DNA of 64,000 nucleotides from the human T2T-CHM13v2.0 reference genome, Homo sapiens. The position numbers and the translations under genes were made by a program. The notes under the pieces were generated by a model. It saw only the letters and a program-made list of their open reading frames with translations. It was not told where the DNA came from and searched no databases. The first letter of the stretch is position 1. Each line of letters begins with the position of its first letter. Positions 20,330 to 28,854 of this stretch are shown here, in pieces. Where the stretch lies: the NCBI RefSeq assembly GCF_009914755.1, contig NC_060927.1, one strand, 5' to 3'.

Positions 20330-20740
20330 TATAAGGATAATTGGACAGACAGCCGAGAAAGGAATGAGGCCAATAGACCCAAGCTTAGGCAAGCTGATTT
20401 ATTGTCAGTCCTGCCAGGCTACCTCTTGACAAAAGCAGAGGAGGCAGCCCCGCTTACAGGCTATAGCAAGGTTTTATAAGGTGTGGAACTGAGTCCCGGT
20501 GAAGGAAAAAGAAAAGGGCGGGGCGGTGGTCCTTTGTGCCAGGTGTCTGACCGCTTCCTGGGGATGTTTTTCTTGCCAGCTCTGTGGTGCAAGGGAGATG
20601 TCTTAACTGCATCCTGGGACAGCTGGTTGACATCCTGGGTCAAACAGTTACAAGCAGGTTTGGGGTAGGGGTTTTACTTTTTAGCATTTGGGTTTTAGGT
20701 CTATGGGAGGGGAAACAGTCCAGTCGGGTGGGCCCTAACA
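20330..20740 (-). repeat. 3' LTR
   Basis: Direct repeat of 28443-28854; preceded on the minus strand by PPT AAAAGGCTGGAA (20741-20752). Confidence 0.95.
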
Positions 20741-20815: not shown

Positions 20816-22462
20816 CTAGGGCAAAGGCTGGAAGGTGGGGGTTGGCTTTGGTTTTGAAATTGTTGATACTCCCAGAGTAACATCATGTCCTGTATGGTTC
20901 CGTGGGCAAAGGCTCAGATATGATTCTGTAAAAACTGGGTGAAGAGGCGTATTAAGCAAGGCCCAAAGATTAGAAGAAAAAGGATTATAGCGGGTCCAAG
21001 GAGAGGGAGTAGCCAGGGGGCCCGGGTGCTGAGAGACCAAGAGGGCCAAGAGGGCCAGGTAGAGGAGTTGCTTTCCCTAATCTTTTGGGCTCGATCTTTG
21101 AGTTTTTTTTTTGTTGTTGTTGTTTCTTTTGTTTTTTGTTTTGCATCTTGAACTAAGCCTGACTGATTAAATAAAAGCAGCATTCTTCGTCTAGAAAAAT
21201 GCAGAGTCCTCCTTTGTCGGCAGTCAGTAGGTCGAGACCTCGGCGATTTTTTAAGACGACTGCTACTTGGGAGTCTAGCTGGGCTTGTAAGGTGGATATG
21301 GAAGTTGCAAGGTTGTTTATCCATCTGAAAGGTCTTTTGATAAGGTTTTATGGTAACAAGAGGAGGTTGCGATTCCTGCTACTCCTGTGCCTGCGGCCGC
21401 TGTGATACCTAGGCTTACCAGTAGTGGGATAAGCTGTATGGCTCTGTGCCTGCGGTGTGGGATTTGAGTATTTAGGGTTTGGAGGAGCAGGTTTTCTCCT
21501 GGAGCTATGTCTATTTTAGGGGTGAGGAAAACCAGTGTACAGGTGCCTGTGCAGTTGGTGGGTAGACAGAAGTAGGTGGAGGTGCCACATAGAAAGAATA
21601 CACCTTGGCTAGGGAGGCAGAATTGGAAATGTATGGCAAAAAGGGGGTGTAAAATGTTGTTCTCCTAGCACCAGGCATGGAGGGAGGAGGCTAGAGCCGC
21701 TCTGGTTAGGGGTTGAAGGAGGAGTGCTGAGGTGAACTGGCTAGCTCCTACTGTTGATTTTTCGGAGTGTAGAAAGAAGCGTTTTGTGTCAATAAGTAGT
21801 TTGTTTGAGGGTGTGTTAGGCAGTGGGATTTCCATGCATTCGGAAGTGGGGATGGCATTTAGTCAAGTGCTCCACCCTGTGATTTGTATTCAGGGCCTGT
21901 CTCAGTTATTGCAGAATCCTGATGTTTTTTCCATGACTTGGGTCTGAGGGGGTTGGAGATTTTGAGAATTTGTGTGGGGTTTGTTGCTGTTACTGTTTGG
22001 ATGCCTGTTGGGAGAATGAGTGTCAGAGTACAGCTGCATAAGCTAGAAGAGAGGGTGCCTAGGGGGACTCCTGAGGAAAGTTCATGTTTATGCATAGGGA
22101 TGCTTGTTGGCTGAGTTTTGAGTCTGAGGTAAGTGCTCCTAAGACAATCTTGTGTTCTGAAGTATGTGTAGTAAGATTGGGTTTGTAACTTTTGAGTTCA
22201 TTTACTCCTCTGAAACTTTGGTAGCAGGGGTGGAGGGTTATATTGGTGAGAACCCAGTCTTTGAGGGGAACTGGGAAGGCATCCTTTGATATGGTTTCTT
22301 AGGGGTATACCAGCAGGCCTTGGCCAGGGAAGGGTTAGTTTGATTGAGTATTGTATGTGCCTGTTGAATGGTGTGCTGAAGGTGGAGTGGTAGTGAGAAG
22401 GAGGAGGGAAGAGGGAGTAAATAGGCAGAGAGCAAGTGTAAAGGTAAAGAATTCGGCTTCAT
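20816..22462 (-). pseudogene. env: env (HERV-H-like), frameshifted
   Basis: ATG 22462 MKPNSLPLHLLSAYLLPLP...HLQHTIQQAHTILNQTNPSLAKACW; CLPTNCTGTCTLVFLTPKI; furin-like RRHR/AIQLIPLL ~21445; [30 protein letters not shown] ~21180-21255; TM anchor WLLPLLGPAIILFLLIFGPC. Confidence 0.9.
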
Positions 22463-22618
22463 CTGGAGTGAATTCCTGTAAATCCCCTTGAATATAAGAT
22501 CGGTGATCCAATCAAGGAATGCCATGAGGGTGGGATGTTCTGGGTAGGACCATGAAATGTTTTCTGTGACGCAGTGAAGGAAGAGGGTGAAACCGCAGGA
22601 TGGGCAAAGACAGGACAT
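22335..22618 (-). pseudogene. Putative accessory ORF-B (CxxC, C-terminal hydrophobic), overlapping env start; inferred 1-nt deletion at ~22491
   Basis: MSCLCPSCGFTLFLHCVTENISWSYPEHPTLMAFLDWITDLI. In the shifted frame it continues QGDLQEFTPDEAEFFTFTLALCLFTPSSLLLLTTTPPSAHHSTGTYNTQSN*. The frameshift is inferred from a remembered HERV-H equivalent. Confidence 0.5.
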
Positions 22619-22631
22619 TTAGGAGGGGCAG

Positions 22632-22808
22632 CTATCTGTTGGTGGCTATTATACCTGCTATAAGGAGGATTATGAGGCAAAAGGTTATGAATATTGAGAT
22701 TTTTTGTCTGAAATTCCACCTGGGAGGTGAGACCATATATAGTCCTATGACAAAGAGTAGAGTAAGCAGGGTGATTACTGCAAGGGCAGCGTAATAGAAG
22801 ATTTTCAT
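22632..22808 (-). CDS. Putative accessory ORF-A, 58 aa, two predicted transmembrane helices
   Basis: Hand translation: MKIFYYAALAVITLLTLLFVIGLYMVSPPRWNFRQKISIFITFCLIILLIAGIIATNR*. Intact ATG to TAG between the pol stop (~22860) and env. Confidence 0.55.
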   Translation of the reverse strand: MKIFYYAALAVITLLTLLFVIGLYMVSPPRWNFRQKISIFITFCLIILLIAGIIATNR

Positions 22809-22859
22809 TAATAAAATTTGGATACTTAAGGTAAGGGGTTATAACCTATCTGTGATGGT

Positions 22860-25800
22860 TCATGGGGGAAGAGTGGGGTCTTCCGGGATGGGCATTAGGT
22901 GGAGTCAAATTGGTCCGAGAAGAGTGCTGGTACATTTGCAGGGAACAGCTGGTCGGTTAGTAGGTGGTGGGCCAGCTGCAGGGGCCTTTTTTAACCTGGA
23001 AAGATGGTACCAAGAGTTGTGTCCTGGAAGTTTGGCTGTGGTGGGGGTAGTGAGAAGGATTTGGAAAGGGCCTTACCACTTTGGTTTGAAACTCGTTGAA
23101 GTAAGGGTTTTTAGGAAGACATAGTCTCCTGGAAGGAGTGTCTGGTCAGTGGGGCCTTGGTGAAGTTTTGGGAGGGCCTGGTCAGCTTGTTCACGGAGGA
23201 GATGATGGATGAGGGAGAGGGTTGGAAGGTACGCTCCTAATTGAGAGTCAGGAGGGGGTCAGTCTGTTTTGTAAGAGGAAAGGGCGTCCATACATTAACT
23301 TGAATGGACTGAGGAAGGAGGGGGCCTTTGGACTGGCTCTGATATGTGTCAGTGCTATGGGTAAAAGGGAGGTCTAAGGTTTTTTGACCTCAAGTGTGAG
23401 TTTGCTTAACTGGGTTTTGAGAATTCCATTTGCCCTCTCAGCTTTTTCGGATGACTGGAGCCAGTATGGGATATGGAGATGCCACTGAATGCCAAGGGAT
23501 TGAGAGACTTGTTGGGTAATTTGGGAGATGAAGCTAGGGCCATTACCTGATTGTGTGGAGTGAGGGAGACCAAATCTATGGATGATTTCTGTCATGAGAA
23601 TTTGAGAGCCTTCTGCAGCTTTTTCTGAAGGGGTAGGAAATACTTCTACCCAACCTGAAAAAGTGTCTACAAGGGTAAGAAGATATTTAGTTTTTTTGAA
23701 GGGAGGCATGTGGGTGAAGTCTACCTGCCAGTCCTCCCCTGGAAGTGTTCCTCTGAGATGATGTGTAAGGATGAGGAGAAGGCGGAGGGTCCCTTGGGAG
23801 GAAGTAACAGAGCATAAATGACAGTTTGAGGTTATGTCCTTTACTGAGGTGAATAGATGGGGGGAGGAGAAATAAGGGTGAAGGAGTAGGTACAGGGGGC
23901 GCCCACTGATATGGAAGGATTGGTGAAGAGATGTTAGAATTTCCTTGTTTTGCTCTTGGGGAAGAATGACCTTTTGGTTTTTGATTATCCAGTCCCCTTG
24001 AAGGGAGGCTCCTTGCTGTAGTAGGGAAGCCTTTTCTGTGGGAGATTATCTGGGTCAGACTGCTGGGGTGGCAAGGAGGATGGGGGCAGGGATAGAAGAA
24101 AGGGAGGCCTGTTTTGCTGCCTCATTGGCCTTTTTATTTCCTCTTGAGATTTTATCTGATCCTGTTTGATGTCCTTGACATGTATGACTCCTGCTTCAGT
24201 TGGGAGGTGTGAGGCCTGAAAGAGTTGGTAAATAGTGGGGCCTTAAATAATGGGGGTTTCTTTGGTGGAAAGGAATCCTCTCTCTTGCCAGATGGTGGCA
24301 TGGAAACGAAGAATGTGATAAGCATTCTTGGAGTCTTTGTATATGTTGACCCGTTTTTTTTTGGAGAGAGTTAGGACTCTGGTGAGAGCTAGAAGTTCTG
24401 CCTTCTGGGAGGAGGTTCCTGGGGGTCAGACTTTAGCTTCAGTTACATAGTCTAAGGTAACTTCTGCATATTCAGCAATTTGGGGAGAGCCAGGGGCTCC
24501 AGAAGAGGAGCCATCTATGAATAGTTGGTCATCTGGGTTAATGAGAGGCTTGGAGGAGATGTTAGGGAAGTGTGGCTGCAGGTGATCCAGAGTGTCAGTG
24601 CAAGAATGAGTAGGAGGGGAAGAGGATATGGGGAGTAGGGATTCTGAGGGGGGCACTTTTGGTGAGGCTGAATTTGGGATTTTCAATAAAGACAGCATGG
24701 AGTGACAGAATTCGGGAAGGAGGGAGCTTAGCGCCTAGGAGGAGAGGAGATCCTGTAAGTTGTGAGGGCTGTGGACGGTGGTGGTTTGGCTGAATGTTAG
24801 TTTTTGCTTTCCAGAGCTAAAATGGATGCTGCTGCTAATGCTCTAAGACAGGTTGGCCACCCTTTCATAGTGTTGTCTAGTTGTTTAGAGAGGTATGCCA
24901 CAGGGCAAAGGAAGGAAGATTTCCCTTTTGTCACCCTAAGACCCTGAGAGCTATTCCTTGGTTTTCAGTTGTATAGAGAATGAAGGGTTGGGAGATGTCA
25001 GCTAAGGACAGGGCAGGTTCAGTGATGAGAGTGGTTTGGAGTTTACAGAAACTGGGAAATATGTTGTGTGGGGGGCTTAGGGGTTCACAGAGGGGGCCTT
25101 TGGCTGCTTCATAGAGGGGCTGAGCCAGGAGGACAAAGTTGGGAATCCATATTCTAAAGAAACCTGGCAATCCTAAGAAAGAGAGAATTTCATTTTTTGA
25201 AGAAGGCAGAGGCAAGCTGTTTGTTAAGGTCACTTGTGCTGAGGTCATGGCTTGGGCCCTGGGGGAGAGTTGGACTCCTAAGTATGTTACTGTTGGGGTG
25301 GATATTTGGGCTTTGGAGGGGGAGACCCTATATCCTTTGCTAGCAAGGAAGTTTAGAAGGGTGATGGTGTGAGTTTGGGAGTCCTCTAGGGAGGGGCTGG
25401 AAAGAAGGAGATCGTCAATGTATTGGAGGAAGCTGCTGGGGGAAAGGTTTAAGGAGGTGAGGTCTTGGGCTAGAGCTTGTCCAAAGAAGTGAGGGCTGTC
25501 TCTGAAGCTTTGAGGGAGGACAGTCCCTGTGAGTTGTTGTGACGGAAGAGTGTCAGAGTCAGTCCAGGTGAAGGCAAAGAGATCTTAGGAATTAGGGTGT
25601 AAGGGAATGGTAAAGAAAGCATCCTTTAGGTCAATTGCTGTATAGTGGGTGGTGTTGGAGGGGATGAGGGAGAGGAGTGTATAGGGGTTAGGGACCACAG
25701 GGTGAATAGGGAGGACAGTCTGACTAATGGCTCAGAGGTCCTGAATGTGTCAGTATGAGCCGTCCGATTTTCTAATGGGAAGGATGGGGGTGTTATATGG

Positions 25801-28442: not shown

Positions 28443-28854
28443 TGTAAGGGATAATTGGAAGGACAGCCAAGAAAGGAATAAGGCCAATAGGCCCAAGTTC
28501 AGGCAAGCTGATTTATTGTCAGTCCTGCCGGGCTACCTCTTGATAAAAGCAGAGGAGGCAGCCCCGCTTACAGGCTATAGTAAGGTTTTATAGGGTGTAG
28601 AACTGGCTCAGGGTGTAGGAAAAATAAAAGGGGGCACGGGGCGGGGGTCCTTTGTGCCAGGTGTCTGACTGCTTCCTGGAGATGCTTTTCTTGCCAGTTC
28701 TGTGGTACAAGGTAGACGTCTTAACTGCATCCTGGGACAGCTGGCCTCCGGTCAAACAGTTACAGGCAGGTTTGGGGTAGGAGGTTTTACTTTTTGGCCT
28801 CTGGGGCTTAGGTCTATGGGAGGGGGAAACAGTCCAGTTGGATGGAACCTAACA
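28443..28854 (-). repeat. 5' LTR
   Basis: TG...CA termini; about 90% identical by eye to 20330-20740. Confidence 0.95.

What the first reader, a model, noticed from the sequence alone, without database searches (positions are those of the whole stretch)
22632..22808. Intact 58-aa two-transmembrane micro-ORF between pol and env of a HERV-F/H-type provirus
Seen: the minus strand reads MKIFYYAALAVITLLTLLFVIGLYMV-SPPRWNFRQK-ISIFITFCLIILLIAGIIATNR*, two hydrophobic helices joined by a short basic loop. It starts ~50 nt after the pol stop, just downstream of a candidate splice acceptor (CCCCACTCTTCCCCCATGAACCATCACAG, AG ~22850). It is open although gag, pol and env are broken, and it is too short for the ORF track. 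Established: class I/gamma-like ERVs are usually described as simple gag-pol-env genomes. From memory (unverified), the HERV-H pol-env interval translates to a similar peptide (..LTLLFATGLYAVTP..W...QK....IFCLVILL). Inference: a conserved viroporin/Vpu-like accessory membrane protein of the HERV-H/F clade.
Basis: partly seen in the sequence, partly recalled or inferred. Interest (0 to 1): 0.85.

Follow-up and report, generated by a model that had tools for sequence, protein, structure and literature searches.

The report
Overlooked small membrane gene in HERV-H/F
Between pol and env of this decayed provirus lies a relic of a 56-58-codon gene for a two-helix membrane peptide; selection kept this gene across HERV-H and several HERV-F-like retrovirus families, which are usually described as having no accessory genes.

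Summary
The ORF is real: minus strand 22808-22632, ATG to TAG, 58 aa, two hydrophobic helices joined by a basic loop. That this one copy is open is not beyond chance: 2 of its 5 closest copies are intact, and P is about 0.5-0.7 from substitutions alone.

Its conservation is beyond chance. The same ORF, with the same start and nearly the same stop, lies between pol and env in HERV-H and in several HERV-F-like lineages. Between lineages, nonsynonymous change is 0.37-0.48 of synonymous change, in this frame only. Third codon positions vary most. The constraint matches that on integrase and env. T-richness sits at codon position 2, so the hydrophobicity is not a composition by-product.

The stop lies 0-13 nt before the env start. 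The ATG has a pyrimidine at -3 in 55 of 56 copies. I found no matching family, fold or paper (ten literature searches).

Best reading: an ancestral retroviral accessory gene for a hairpin membrane protein, sitting as the cistron upstream of env. Its function is untested. Today's copies show no sign of host-level selection.

The parts
22632..22808 (-). Micro-ORF, 58 codons plus TAG. A relic copy of the conserved pol-env small gene.
   Evidence: Homologous ORFs occur in many other proviruses.
22731..22805 (-). Predicted helix 1 (residues 2-26). The most constrained part is codons 14-26.
   Evidence: AlphaFold2. (hydropathy 2.61). (pN/pS 0.22-0.52 for codons 14-26).
22713..22730 (-). Short loop (residues 27-32) with the near-invariant Pro28 and Trp31. 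Basic residues follow.
   Evidence: P28 and W31 in at least 90% of 24 copies; Q35 invariant..
22638..22712 (-). Predicted helix 2 (residues 33-57), with invariant Cys44.
   Evidence: (pN/pS 0.38-0.61 for codons 39-54).
22905..23072 (-). Integrase C-terminal frame of this copy, ending in TGA at 22907-22905, 96 nt before the micro-ORF ATG.
22850..22878 (-). Its function is not shown.
22238..22618 (-). env N-terminal frame, 126 codons. Its ATG lies 13 nt after the micro-ORF stop. It holds a conserved leader of about 41 aa, then the signal peptide and the start of SU.
   Evidence: (leader pN/pS 0.44 against HERV-H).
20332..20740 (-). 3' LTR of the provirus (the aligned part).
   Evidence: 88.0% identity to the other LTR over 416 columns.
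28445..28854 (-). 5' LTR of the provirus (the aligned part).

Best explanation
The window holds one decayed copy of a real retroviral gene. The exogenous ancestors of HERV-H and of several HERV-F-like families carried, between the pol stop and the env start, a separate cistron of 56-58 codons. It encodes a small hairpin membrane protein: two transmembrane helices, a short loop with Pro, Trp and Gln-Lys/Arg, and a conserved Cys in helix 2.

Shown: the ORF, its place, and purifying selection on its amino-acid sequence between lineages.

Inferred:
- It was translated as the first cistron of a spliced env-type mRNA.
- Env was then made by leaky scanning past a weak start or by reinitiation at the env AUG 0-13 nt after the stop.
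- The loop faces the cytosol and both ends face the lumen (positive-inside rule).
- It acted in membranes of the secretory pathway, either as a viroporin-like oligomer or as a helix-binding modulator of Env or of a host membrane protein.

The present human copies, this one included, look like neutrally decaying relics, not host genes.
For: Presence and position:
- Peptide searches of the window's own genome gave 150 scored matches of 276 candidates with the window peptide. They gave 150 of 1085 with a HERV-H copy and 150 of 323 with a group-C copy.
- In lineages with recognisable pol and env, the ORF sits between them. This holds for the window and group A, group C locus L012 (rve upstream, TLV_coat downstream) and HERV-H.

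Start and stop:
- The ATG is kept in 56 of 65 copies.
- The stop falls at codon 57-62 in most copies.
- The next ATG lies close behind the stop. It is 0 nt away in 13 of 15 HERV-H copies, 13 nt in 4 of 5 group-A copies (0 in L004) and in L024, 0-3 nt in 8 of 11 group-C copies, and 0 nt in L048. It opens the env leader or signal peptide in the window and in L012.

Selection, over 54 gapless codons, all cross-group pairs:
- In the ORF's frame, pN/pS is 0.25/0.60 (A-B, 55 pairs), 0.20/0.53 (A-C, 55), 0.19/0.37 (B-C, 121) and 0.38-0.40/0.77-0.86 (A, B, C against HERV-H; 75, 165, 165 pairs).
- In the two shifted frames, pN is about equal to or above pS for all comparisons with HERV-H.
- Mismatch by codon position 1, 2, 3 is 0.35/0.19/0.47 (A-B) and 0.46/0.33/0.67 (A-H).
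- Single pairs of intact natural copies give Fisher p of 4e-7 (window v L011), 6e-7 (window v L012), 9e-6 (window v L037) and 6e-10 (L010 v L037).
- Both halves are constrained: 0.33-0.53 for codons 1-27 and 0.43-0.50 for codons 28-54.
- By the same method, the integrase core gives 0.48-0.62, the integrase C-terminus 0.49-0.64 and the env N-terminus 0.52. The micro-ORF gives 0.37-0.48.

Composition: T makes up 0.46-0.54 of codon position 2, against 0.17-0.21 at position 1 and 0.26-0.30 at position 3.

Structure: a helical hairpin with pLDDT 79.4. Hydropathy peaks are 2.6 and 3.0.

Translation context:
- The -3 base is a pyrimidine in 55 of 56 copies that keep the ATG.
- Internal ATGs number 0.6-1.4 per copy, against 1.3-2.7 in shuffles.

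Independent cistron: its frame relative to env differs between lineages, with offsets of 0, 2, 3 and 13 nt.
Against: - I could examine no RNA, ribosome or peptide data, so expression is inferred only.
- The env splice acceptor cannot be placed. Motifs like 3' splice sites lie upstream of the ATG. They also lie inside the ORF at +31, +61/64 and +136/151 in every group. If the real acceptor is inside, the env mRNA would lack this ATG.
- Within HERV-H there is no significant sign of selection. Shared variants are 17 synonymous to 29 nonsynonymous; singletons are 22 to 58; p = 0.32.
- The higher intactness of the ORF in HERV-H is confounded. It is 26 of 35 copies, against a median of 0.50 and a maximum of 0.73 for 50 pol/env tiles. 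The sample was chosen by similarity to this peptide.
- A subclade of group B carries a stop at codon 31 in 5 of 9 copies, so it probably spread without an intact ORF.
- Many HERV-H copies carry truncated or frameshifted forms.
- The gene is not universal in the wider clade. Passages of Diehl et al. 2016 (PMC4798954) say that ERV-Fc env usually overlaps pol and that no accessory genes are apparent.
- Pair counts are not independent, because copies share ancestry. The HERV-H against F-like alignment (about 50% nt identity) is anchored on the peptide and on the start and stop positions.
Confidence: 0.75

Rival explanations
1. It is a purely regulatory upstream ORF of env. Its translation tunes Env output and the peptide itself has no function.
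For: The stop lies 0-13 nt before the env ATG. The start context is weak in 55 of 56 copies. Internal ATGs are mildly depleted.
Against: A sequence-independent uORF should not show pN/pS of 0.37-0.48 over its whole length, nor invariant Leu18, Phe19, Gln35 and Cys44 across lineages whose synonymous sites are saturated. A stalling-peptide uORF would explain a conserved peptide, but not two full membrane-helix lengths. The two roles are not exclusive.
Confidence: 0.1
2. It is a chance open frame, and its hydrophobicity comes from pyrimidine-rich sequence such as a splice-acceptor tract.
For: Open frames are common here. 4 of 308 open blocks are as hydrophobic. The region carries acceptor-like motifs.
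Against: T is concentrated at codon position 2, not spread evenly. Substitutions are 3-periodic, with position 3 the most variable. Selection is seen in one frame only. The ATG and stop are conserved across lineages that are about 50% identical in DNA.
Confidence: 0.03
3. It is an N-terminal part of Env: a long leader read through the stop, or a once-fused leader now cut off by a stop.
For: In HERV-H the ORF is in frame with, and abuts, the next ORF (TAA then ATG). In L042 the stop is lost and a 269-aa frame runs into SU. The env of groups A and H has a conserved extra leader.
Against: The stop is present in every lineage. The frame relation to env differs between lineages: offsets of 0, 2, 3 and 13 nt, of which 2 and 13 are out of frame. 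The next ORF has its own ATG. There is no similarity between the peptide and Env (E = 0.32).
Confidence: 0.05
4. Some copies have been taken over by the host as a human micropeptide gene.
For: 22 of 36 sampled HERV-H copies are strictly intact. The ORF is intact in more copies than any of 50 pol/env tiles.
Against: The sample was chosen by similarity to the peptide. Hydrophobic codons offer few one-step routes to a stop. Shared and singleton variants do not differ (p = 0.32). RefSeq has no annotation at this locus (hub table). I made no orthologue comparison.
Confidence: 0.05

Closest known systems
HIV-1 Vpu (recalled, not fetched)
   Same: A small retroviral membrane protein encoded directly 5' of env. 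It is translated from the same mRNA as Env, past a weak start codon. Here the ORF abuts env and has a pyrimidine at -3.
   Different: Vpu has one transmembrane helix plus a cytoplasmic domain, and belongs to lentiviruses. This peptide has two helices, no soluble domain, no Pfam match and lies in gamma-like ERVs. A shared mRNA is not shown here.
Hepatitis C virus p7, a two-helix viroporin (recalled, not fetched)
   Same: About 60 aa, with two transmembrane helices joined by a short basic loop. The predicted topology is the same, with the loop in the cytosol.
   Different: There is no sequence or fold match to any solved structure: 0 PDB sequences at E <= 10 and no Foldseek hit at E <= 0.001. 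p7 is cut out of a polyprotein. Channel activity and oligomers are untested here.
HTLV-1 p12/p8, a small two-helix accessory protein of a deltaretrovirus (recalled, not fetched)
   Same: A retroviral accessory protein that is little more than two membrane helices and acts on host membrane proteins.
   Different: p12 is encoded 3' of env in the pX region from doubly spliced RNA and is longer. No similarity was found in any search.
Standard description of the HERV-H/F/W and ERV-Fc clade as simple gag-pro-pol-env genomes
   Same: The window provirus has the usual gamma-like domains.
   Different: Passages of Diehl et al. 2016 (PMC4798954) and Halo et al. 2019 (PMC6407205) say the clade lacks accessory genes. 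Vargiu et al. 2016 (PMC4724089) holds none of the words 'accessory', 'additional ORF', 'extra ORF' or 'unusual ORF'. The ORF described here is an extra conserved cistron.

Membership tests
Protein-coding retroviral gene under purifying selection | Start and stop conserved in position across diverged lineages | tested here: met
   The ATG is kept in 56 of 65 copies. The stop falls at codon 57-62 in most copies and lies 0-13 nt before the env ATG.
Protein-coding retroviral gene under purifying selection | Nonsynonymous change below synonymous change in the claimed frame only; third positions most variable | tested here: met
.
Protein-coding retroviral gene under purifying selection | Transcript and translation product observed | not testable with these tools
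   No RNA, Ribo-seq or proteome data were at hand.
Viroporin (two-helix class, p7-like) | Small, with two transmembrane helices and a short basic loop | tested here: met
   These are predictions only.
Viroporin (two-helix class, p7-like) | Homo-oligomer that forms a pore | not tested
   The complex prediction was never accepted by the tool. See Tried and rejected.
Viroporin (two-helix class, p7-like) | Ion or small-molecule conductance; membrane permeabilisation | not testable with these tools
   This needs bilayer, liposome or cell assays.
Viroporin (two-helix class, p7-like) | Sequence or fold kinship with a known viroporin | tested here: not met
   No Pfam family reached its cut-off. There were 0 PDB sequences at E <= 10. 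There were no Foldseek matches at E <= 0.001 in BFVD or PDB.
Vpu | Single N-terminal transmembrane helix plus a cytoplasmic helical domain | tested here: not met
   Two helices fill the whole 58 aa. There is no Vpu family match.
Vpu | Gene directly 5' of env, with a weak start that lets ribosomes reach env | tested here: inconclusive
   Position is met. The -3 base is a pyrimidine in 55 of 56 copies. A shared mRNA is not shown.
Regulatory uORF without a functional peptide | Peptide sequence free to vary | tested here: not met
   pN/pS is 0.37-0.48, and there are 5 invariant and 12 near-invariant residues in 24 copies.
HERV-H/F supergroup provirus (the window element) | Gamma-like gag, pol and env between LTRs; pol and env related to HERV-H copies | tested here: met
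   Gag_p30, RVT_1, rve and TLV_coat. LTR pair. Integrase and env N-terminus align to HERV-H loci. No tool gave Repbase/Dfam family names. Groups A, B and C are my own labels.

The most novel reading that the evidence does not exclude
The HERV-H/F lineage was not a 'simple' retrovirus. It carried a viroporin-like or Env-pathway accessory protein, made from the env mRNA in the way Vpu is. Some of the intact copies in HERV-H loci (22 of 36 sampled) are still translated into a membrane micropeptide in cells that transcribe HERV-H strongly.
Probability: 0.15. Interest if true: 0.9.

Novelty: new variant of a known kind. Interest (0 to 1): 0.7.

Why it matters
Gamma-like retroviruses, and this clade in particular, are described as lacking accessory genes (passages read in PMC4798954 and PMC6407205). 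A small membrane-protein gene kept by selection across families would change that picture. These families' synonymous sites are saturated against each other.

It would give a new class of retroviral accessory protein to test, for effects on Env maturation, release, receptor or restriction-factor control.

It would also add a defined, repeated micro-ORF to the list of possible translation products of HERV-H RNAs. HERV-H RNAs are reported as expressed in pluripotent cells (PMC12228294) and in cancers (PMC3253121 and PMC9631305). The claim can be tested directly with natural copies.

Tried and rejected
The job was never accepted because the queue was full. Oligomerisation is therefore untested.

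Family and fold searches gave nothing usable:
- Pfam had no family at its cut-off.
- BFVD and PDB Foldseek returned only generic two-helix membrane subunits, with E >= 0.5.
- The PDB sequence search gave 0 hits.
- The ESM Atlas gave scores below 0.9.

Large protein libraries returned only unnamed copies of the same ERV peptides: 97 hits and 35 of 1.84 billion representatives.

Splice acceptor: a crude filter (pyrimidine tract, AG, AG-exclusion zone) found no single conserved site upstream of the ATG. It found equally good motifs inside the ORF. No placement is possible.

Host-level selection: the tile control and the shared-versus-singleton test gave no usable signal.

Kinship with Env was rejected (E = 0.32).

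Group B: I looked for a primer-binding site and for pol upstream of the ORF and found none. I treat group B as a derivative lacking pol. Its family name is unknown.

Literature: ten full-text searches found no paper describing an ORF between pol and env of HERV-H/F, or a HERV viroporin. The papers most likely to mention it could not be read:
- Jern et al. 2005 (PMC1091717) and Wilkinson et al. 1993 (PMC237634) are not held.
- Lindeskog and Blomberg 1997 was seen only as cited in PMC9631305.
- I did not open supplements.

So 'not in print' holds only for the searched library. 

Full report
1. THE OBSERVATION

On the minus strand, ATG at 22808 opens a 58-codon frame closed by TAG at 22634-22632. 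The frame lies in a gamma-like provirus on the minus strand. The LTRs are at 28445-28854 and 20332-20740, 88.0% identical over 416 columns. The broken frames between them carry Gag_p30, RVT_1, rve and TLV_coat.

The integrase frame of this copy ends at TGA 22907-22905, so the gap to the ATG is 96 nt, not about 50. The next frame begins at ATG 22618, 13 nt after the stop, and runs into the start of SU.

The peptide has two hydrophobic stretches, with best 19-aa hydropathy of 2.61 and 3.01, and a loop of net charge +3. AlphaFold2 with 24 natural relatives gives helix 2-26, loop 27-32 and helix 33-57, at pLDDT 79.4.

2. IS THE OPEN FRAME IN THIS COPY MORE THAN CHANCE? NO.

- Frames of 40 aa or more are common here: 147 in 11 kb.
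- About 4.8% of possible substitutions would disable the ORF. At 4.5-8% divergence it stays open with probability 0.51-0.68, before counting indels.
- Of the five closest copies, two are intact.
- 4 of 308 open 58-aa blocks in the window are at least as hydrophobic.

3. RELATED COPIES

A six-frame search of the window's own genome with the peptide returned 150 scored matches out of 276 candidates. By my hand count of that table, 70 of the 150 have no stop inside the match. I read 30 loci around the best matches, 20 around weak ones and 21 more HERV-H loci.

The copies fall into groups that I labelled myself; no tool gave family names:
- Group A: the window and four relatives.
- Group C: 11 loci. 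In L012 an rve integrase lies upstream and a TLV_coat env downstream.
- Group B: 11 loci. No pol is recognisable upstream and the env ATG is mostly lost.
- Single loci L024 and L048.
- HERV-H proper: 36 loci.

A search with a HERV-H copy gave 1085 candidates. One with a group-C copy gave 323.

The names HERVH, HERVH48, HERVFA, HERVFB and HERVFC for the 'HERVHF supergroup' are from a passage of Vargiu et al. 2016 (PMC4724089).

4. ANATOMY ACROSS LINEAGES

The ATG is kept in 56 of 65 copies. The base at -3 is a pyrimidine in 55 of those 56.

The stop falls at codon 57-62 in most copies, and the next ATG follows closely:
- 0 nt after the stop in 13 of 15 HERV-H copies (TAA then ATG);
- 13 nt in 4 of 5 group-A copies (0 in L004) and in L024;
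- 0-3 nt in 8 of 11 group-C copies;
- 0 nt in L048.

The frame relation to that next ORF therefore differs between lineages. This argues for a separate cistron rather than a read-through leader.

In HERV-H, pol ends in two tandem TAA codons a few bases before the ATG. So the order pol, micro-ORF, next ORF is packed almost without spacer. Locus L075 shows the whole arrangement in one natural copy:
- pol end;
- an open 56-codon micro-ORF;
- a 94-codon ORF starting right after its stop;
- a 584-codon env frame that overlaps that second ORF.

5. SELECTION

I compared natural copies pairwise (Nei-Gojobori counts).

Over 54 gapless codons, in the ORF's frame, pN/pS is:
- 0.25/0.60 for A against B (55 pairs);
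- 0.20/0.53 for A against C (55 pairs);
- 0.19/0.37 for B against C (121 pairs);
- 0.38-0.40/0.77-0.86 for A, B and C against HERV-H (75, 165 and 165 pairs).

In the two shifted frames of the same DNA, pN is about equal to or above pS for every comparison with HERV-H. The ratios among A, B and C are 0.58-1.23.

Mismatches by codon position 1, 2, 3 are 0.35/0.19/0.47 (A-B) and 0.46/0.33/0.67 (A-H). Single pairs of intact copies give Fisher p from 4e-7 to 6e-10 for between-group pairs. Both halves of the ORF are constrained, and the core of helix 1 most of all.

With one and the same tblastn-anchored method, pN/pS is:
- micro-ORF: 0.37-0.48;
- integrase core: 0.48-0.62;
- integrase C-terminus: 0.49-0.64;
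- env N-terminus: 0.52.

T makes up about half of codon position 2, but only 0.17-0.21 of position 1 and 0.26-0.30 of position 3. The hydrophobicity is therefore encoded, not a side effect of a pyrimidine tract.

Caveats:
- Pairs share ancestry, so the counts are not independent.
- The alignment between HERV-H and the F-like groups (about 50% nt identity) rests on the peptide and on the shared start and stop.
- The A, B and C comparisons (67-80% nt identity, no gaps) do not have this weakness.

6. WHAT HAPPENED AFTER INTEGRATION

Within HERV-H, 22 of 36 sampled copies are strictly intact. Measured the same way, the ORF is unbroken in 26 of 35 copies. For 50 tiles of equal length from pol and env the median is 0.50 and the maximum 0.73. 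However, the sample was picked by similarity to this peptide, and hydrophobic codons are rarely one step from a stop.

Shared against singleton variants do not differ: 17 synonymous to 29 nonsynonymous, against 22 to 58, p = 0.32.

Stops cluster at codon 31, the loop tryptophan position:
- 5 of 7 stops in group B;
- 3 of 3 in group C;
- 4 of 9 in HERV-H.

All are G-to-A type. In one group-B subclade the pattern suggests the stop was inherited.

Many HERV-H copies carry truncated or frameshifted forms. I see no evidence that the host keeps the ORF.

7. MECHANISM

Shown: a separate, selected cistron for a two-helix hydrophobic peptide directly 5' of env.

Inferred:
- Expression from a spliced env-type RNA in which this ATG comes first.
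- Env translation by leaky scanning, or by reinitiation at the abutting env ATG. The -3 pyrimidine fits leaky scanning. So does the count of internal ATGs: 0.6-1.4 per copy against 1.3-2.7 in shuffles.
- A loop-in, ends-out topology.
- Action in secretory-pathway membranes.

I cannot place the acceptor. They also occur inside the ORF at three conserved places. Oligomerisation could not be tested.

8. COMPARISON WITH KNOWN SYSTEMS (properties recalled, not fetched)

- In position and likely mode of expression it resembles HIV-1 Vpu.
- In size and predicted topology it resembles two-helix viroporins such as hepatitis C virus p7.
- As a retroviral accessory protein made of two membrane helices it recalls HTLV-1 p12/p8.

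It is a member of none of these:
- Pfam has no family at its cut-off.
- No PDB sequence matches at E <= 10.
- Foldseek finds nothing at E <= 0.001 in BFVD or PDB.
- In two very large protein libraries only unnamed copies of the same ERV peptide appear: 97 hits and 35 of 1.84 billion representatives.

9. NOVELTY

Passages read in Diehl et al. 2016 (PMC4798954) and Halo et al. 2019 (PMC6407205) state that this clade has simple genomes without accessory genes. Diehl et al. also note that ERV-Fc env usually overlaps pol, except in hominid and Old World primate ERV-Fc2.

Ten full-text searches found no description of this ORF. The older HERV-H papers most likely to mention it were not readable here. 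The claim of novelty is therefore limited to the searched library.

10. VERDICT

The reading as a conserved accessory membrane-protein gene of the HERV-H/F clade is supported for the ancestral viruses. The viroporin or Vpu-like function is an open hypothesis. The copy in this window is an ordinary relic.

Noticed in passing
window 22496-22618 (minus); L031-L046; L075:1804-2088: The env of group A and HERV-H carries a conserved stretch of about 41 aa before the signal peptide. It starts at the ATG that follows the micro-ORF stop, and pN/pS against HERV-H is 0.44. In the window it is in frame with SU. In many HERV-H copies it is a separate frame that overlaps the env start; in L075 it is a 94-codon ORF. 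This looks like an unusually long Env leader or a second upstream ORF.
   Followed up: partly
L071 (C7:78594802-78595833), L072 (C23:99229991-99231016): In deleted HERV-H copies a deletion joins the integrase core in frame to the loop and second helix of the micro-ORF. This gives open frames of 197 and 180 aa. By hand count, about 35-40 matches of this kind are listed.
   Followed up: partly
codon 31 of the ORF in L013, L017, L020, L025, L029, L014, L021, L028 and four HERV-H copies: In-frame stops cluster at the loop tryptophan codon and are all G-to-A type changes. This is the pattern expected from APOBEC3 editing of retroviral DNA. That link is my inference; only the search listing of PMC2564838 was seen.
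   Followed up: partly
L006-L029 (group B loci): This is a dispersed derivative. It keeps the micro-ORF and the start of env-like sequence but has AT-rich, non-pol sequence upstream. A GTGAGT motif lies about 109 nt before the ATG, and 'ttttag' lies directly before it. Its family is not identified.
   Followed up: partly
L042 (C12:14108806-14113937): This HERV-H copy has lost the micro-ORF stop, so a 269-aa frame runs from the micro-ORF through the leader into SU.
   Followed up: no
P0087 and the '1-37 to 1-44' matches: A HERV-H subgroup has a frameshift after about codon 37 of the ORF. It gives open frames of 76-82 aa whose second half is read in another frame.
   Followed up: no
L011:179-655 (plus strand): An RNase H/integrase-like frame of a different retroviral type lies on the opposite strand next to a group-B copy. 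It is probably an unrelated neighbouring ERV.
   Followed up: no
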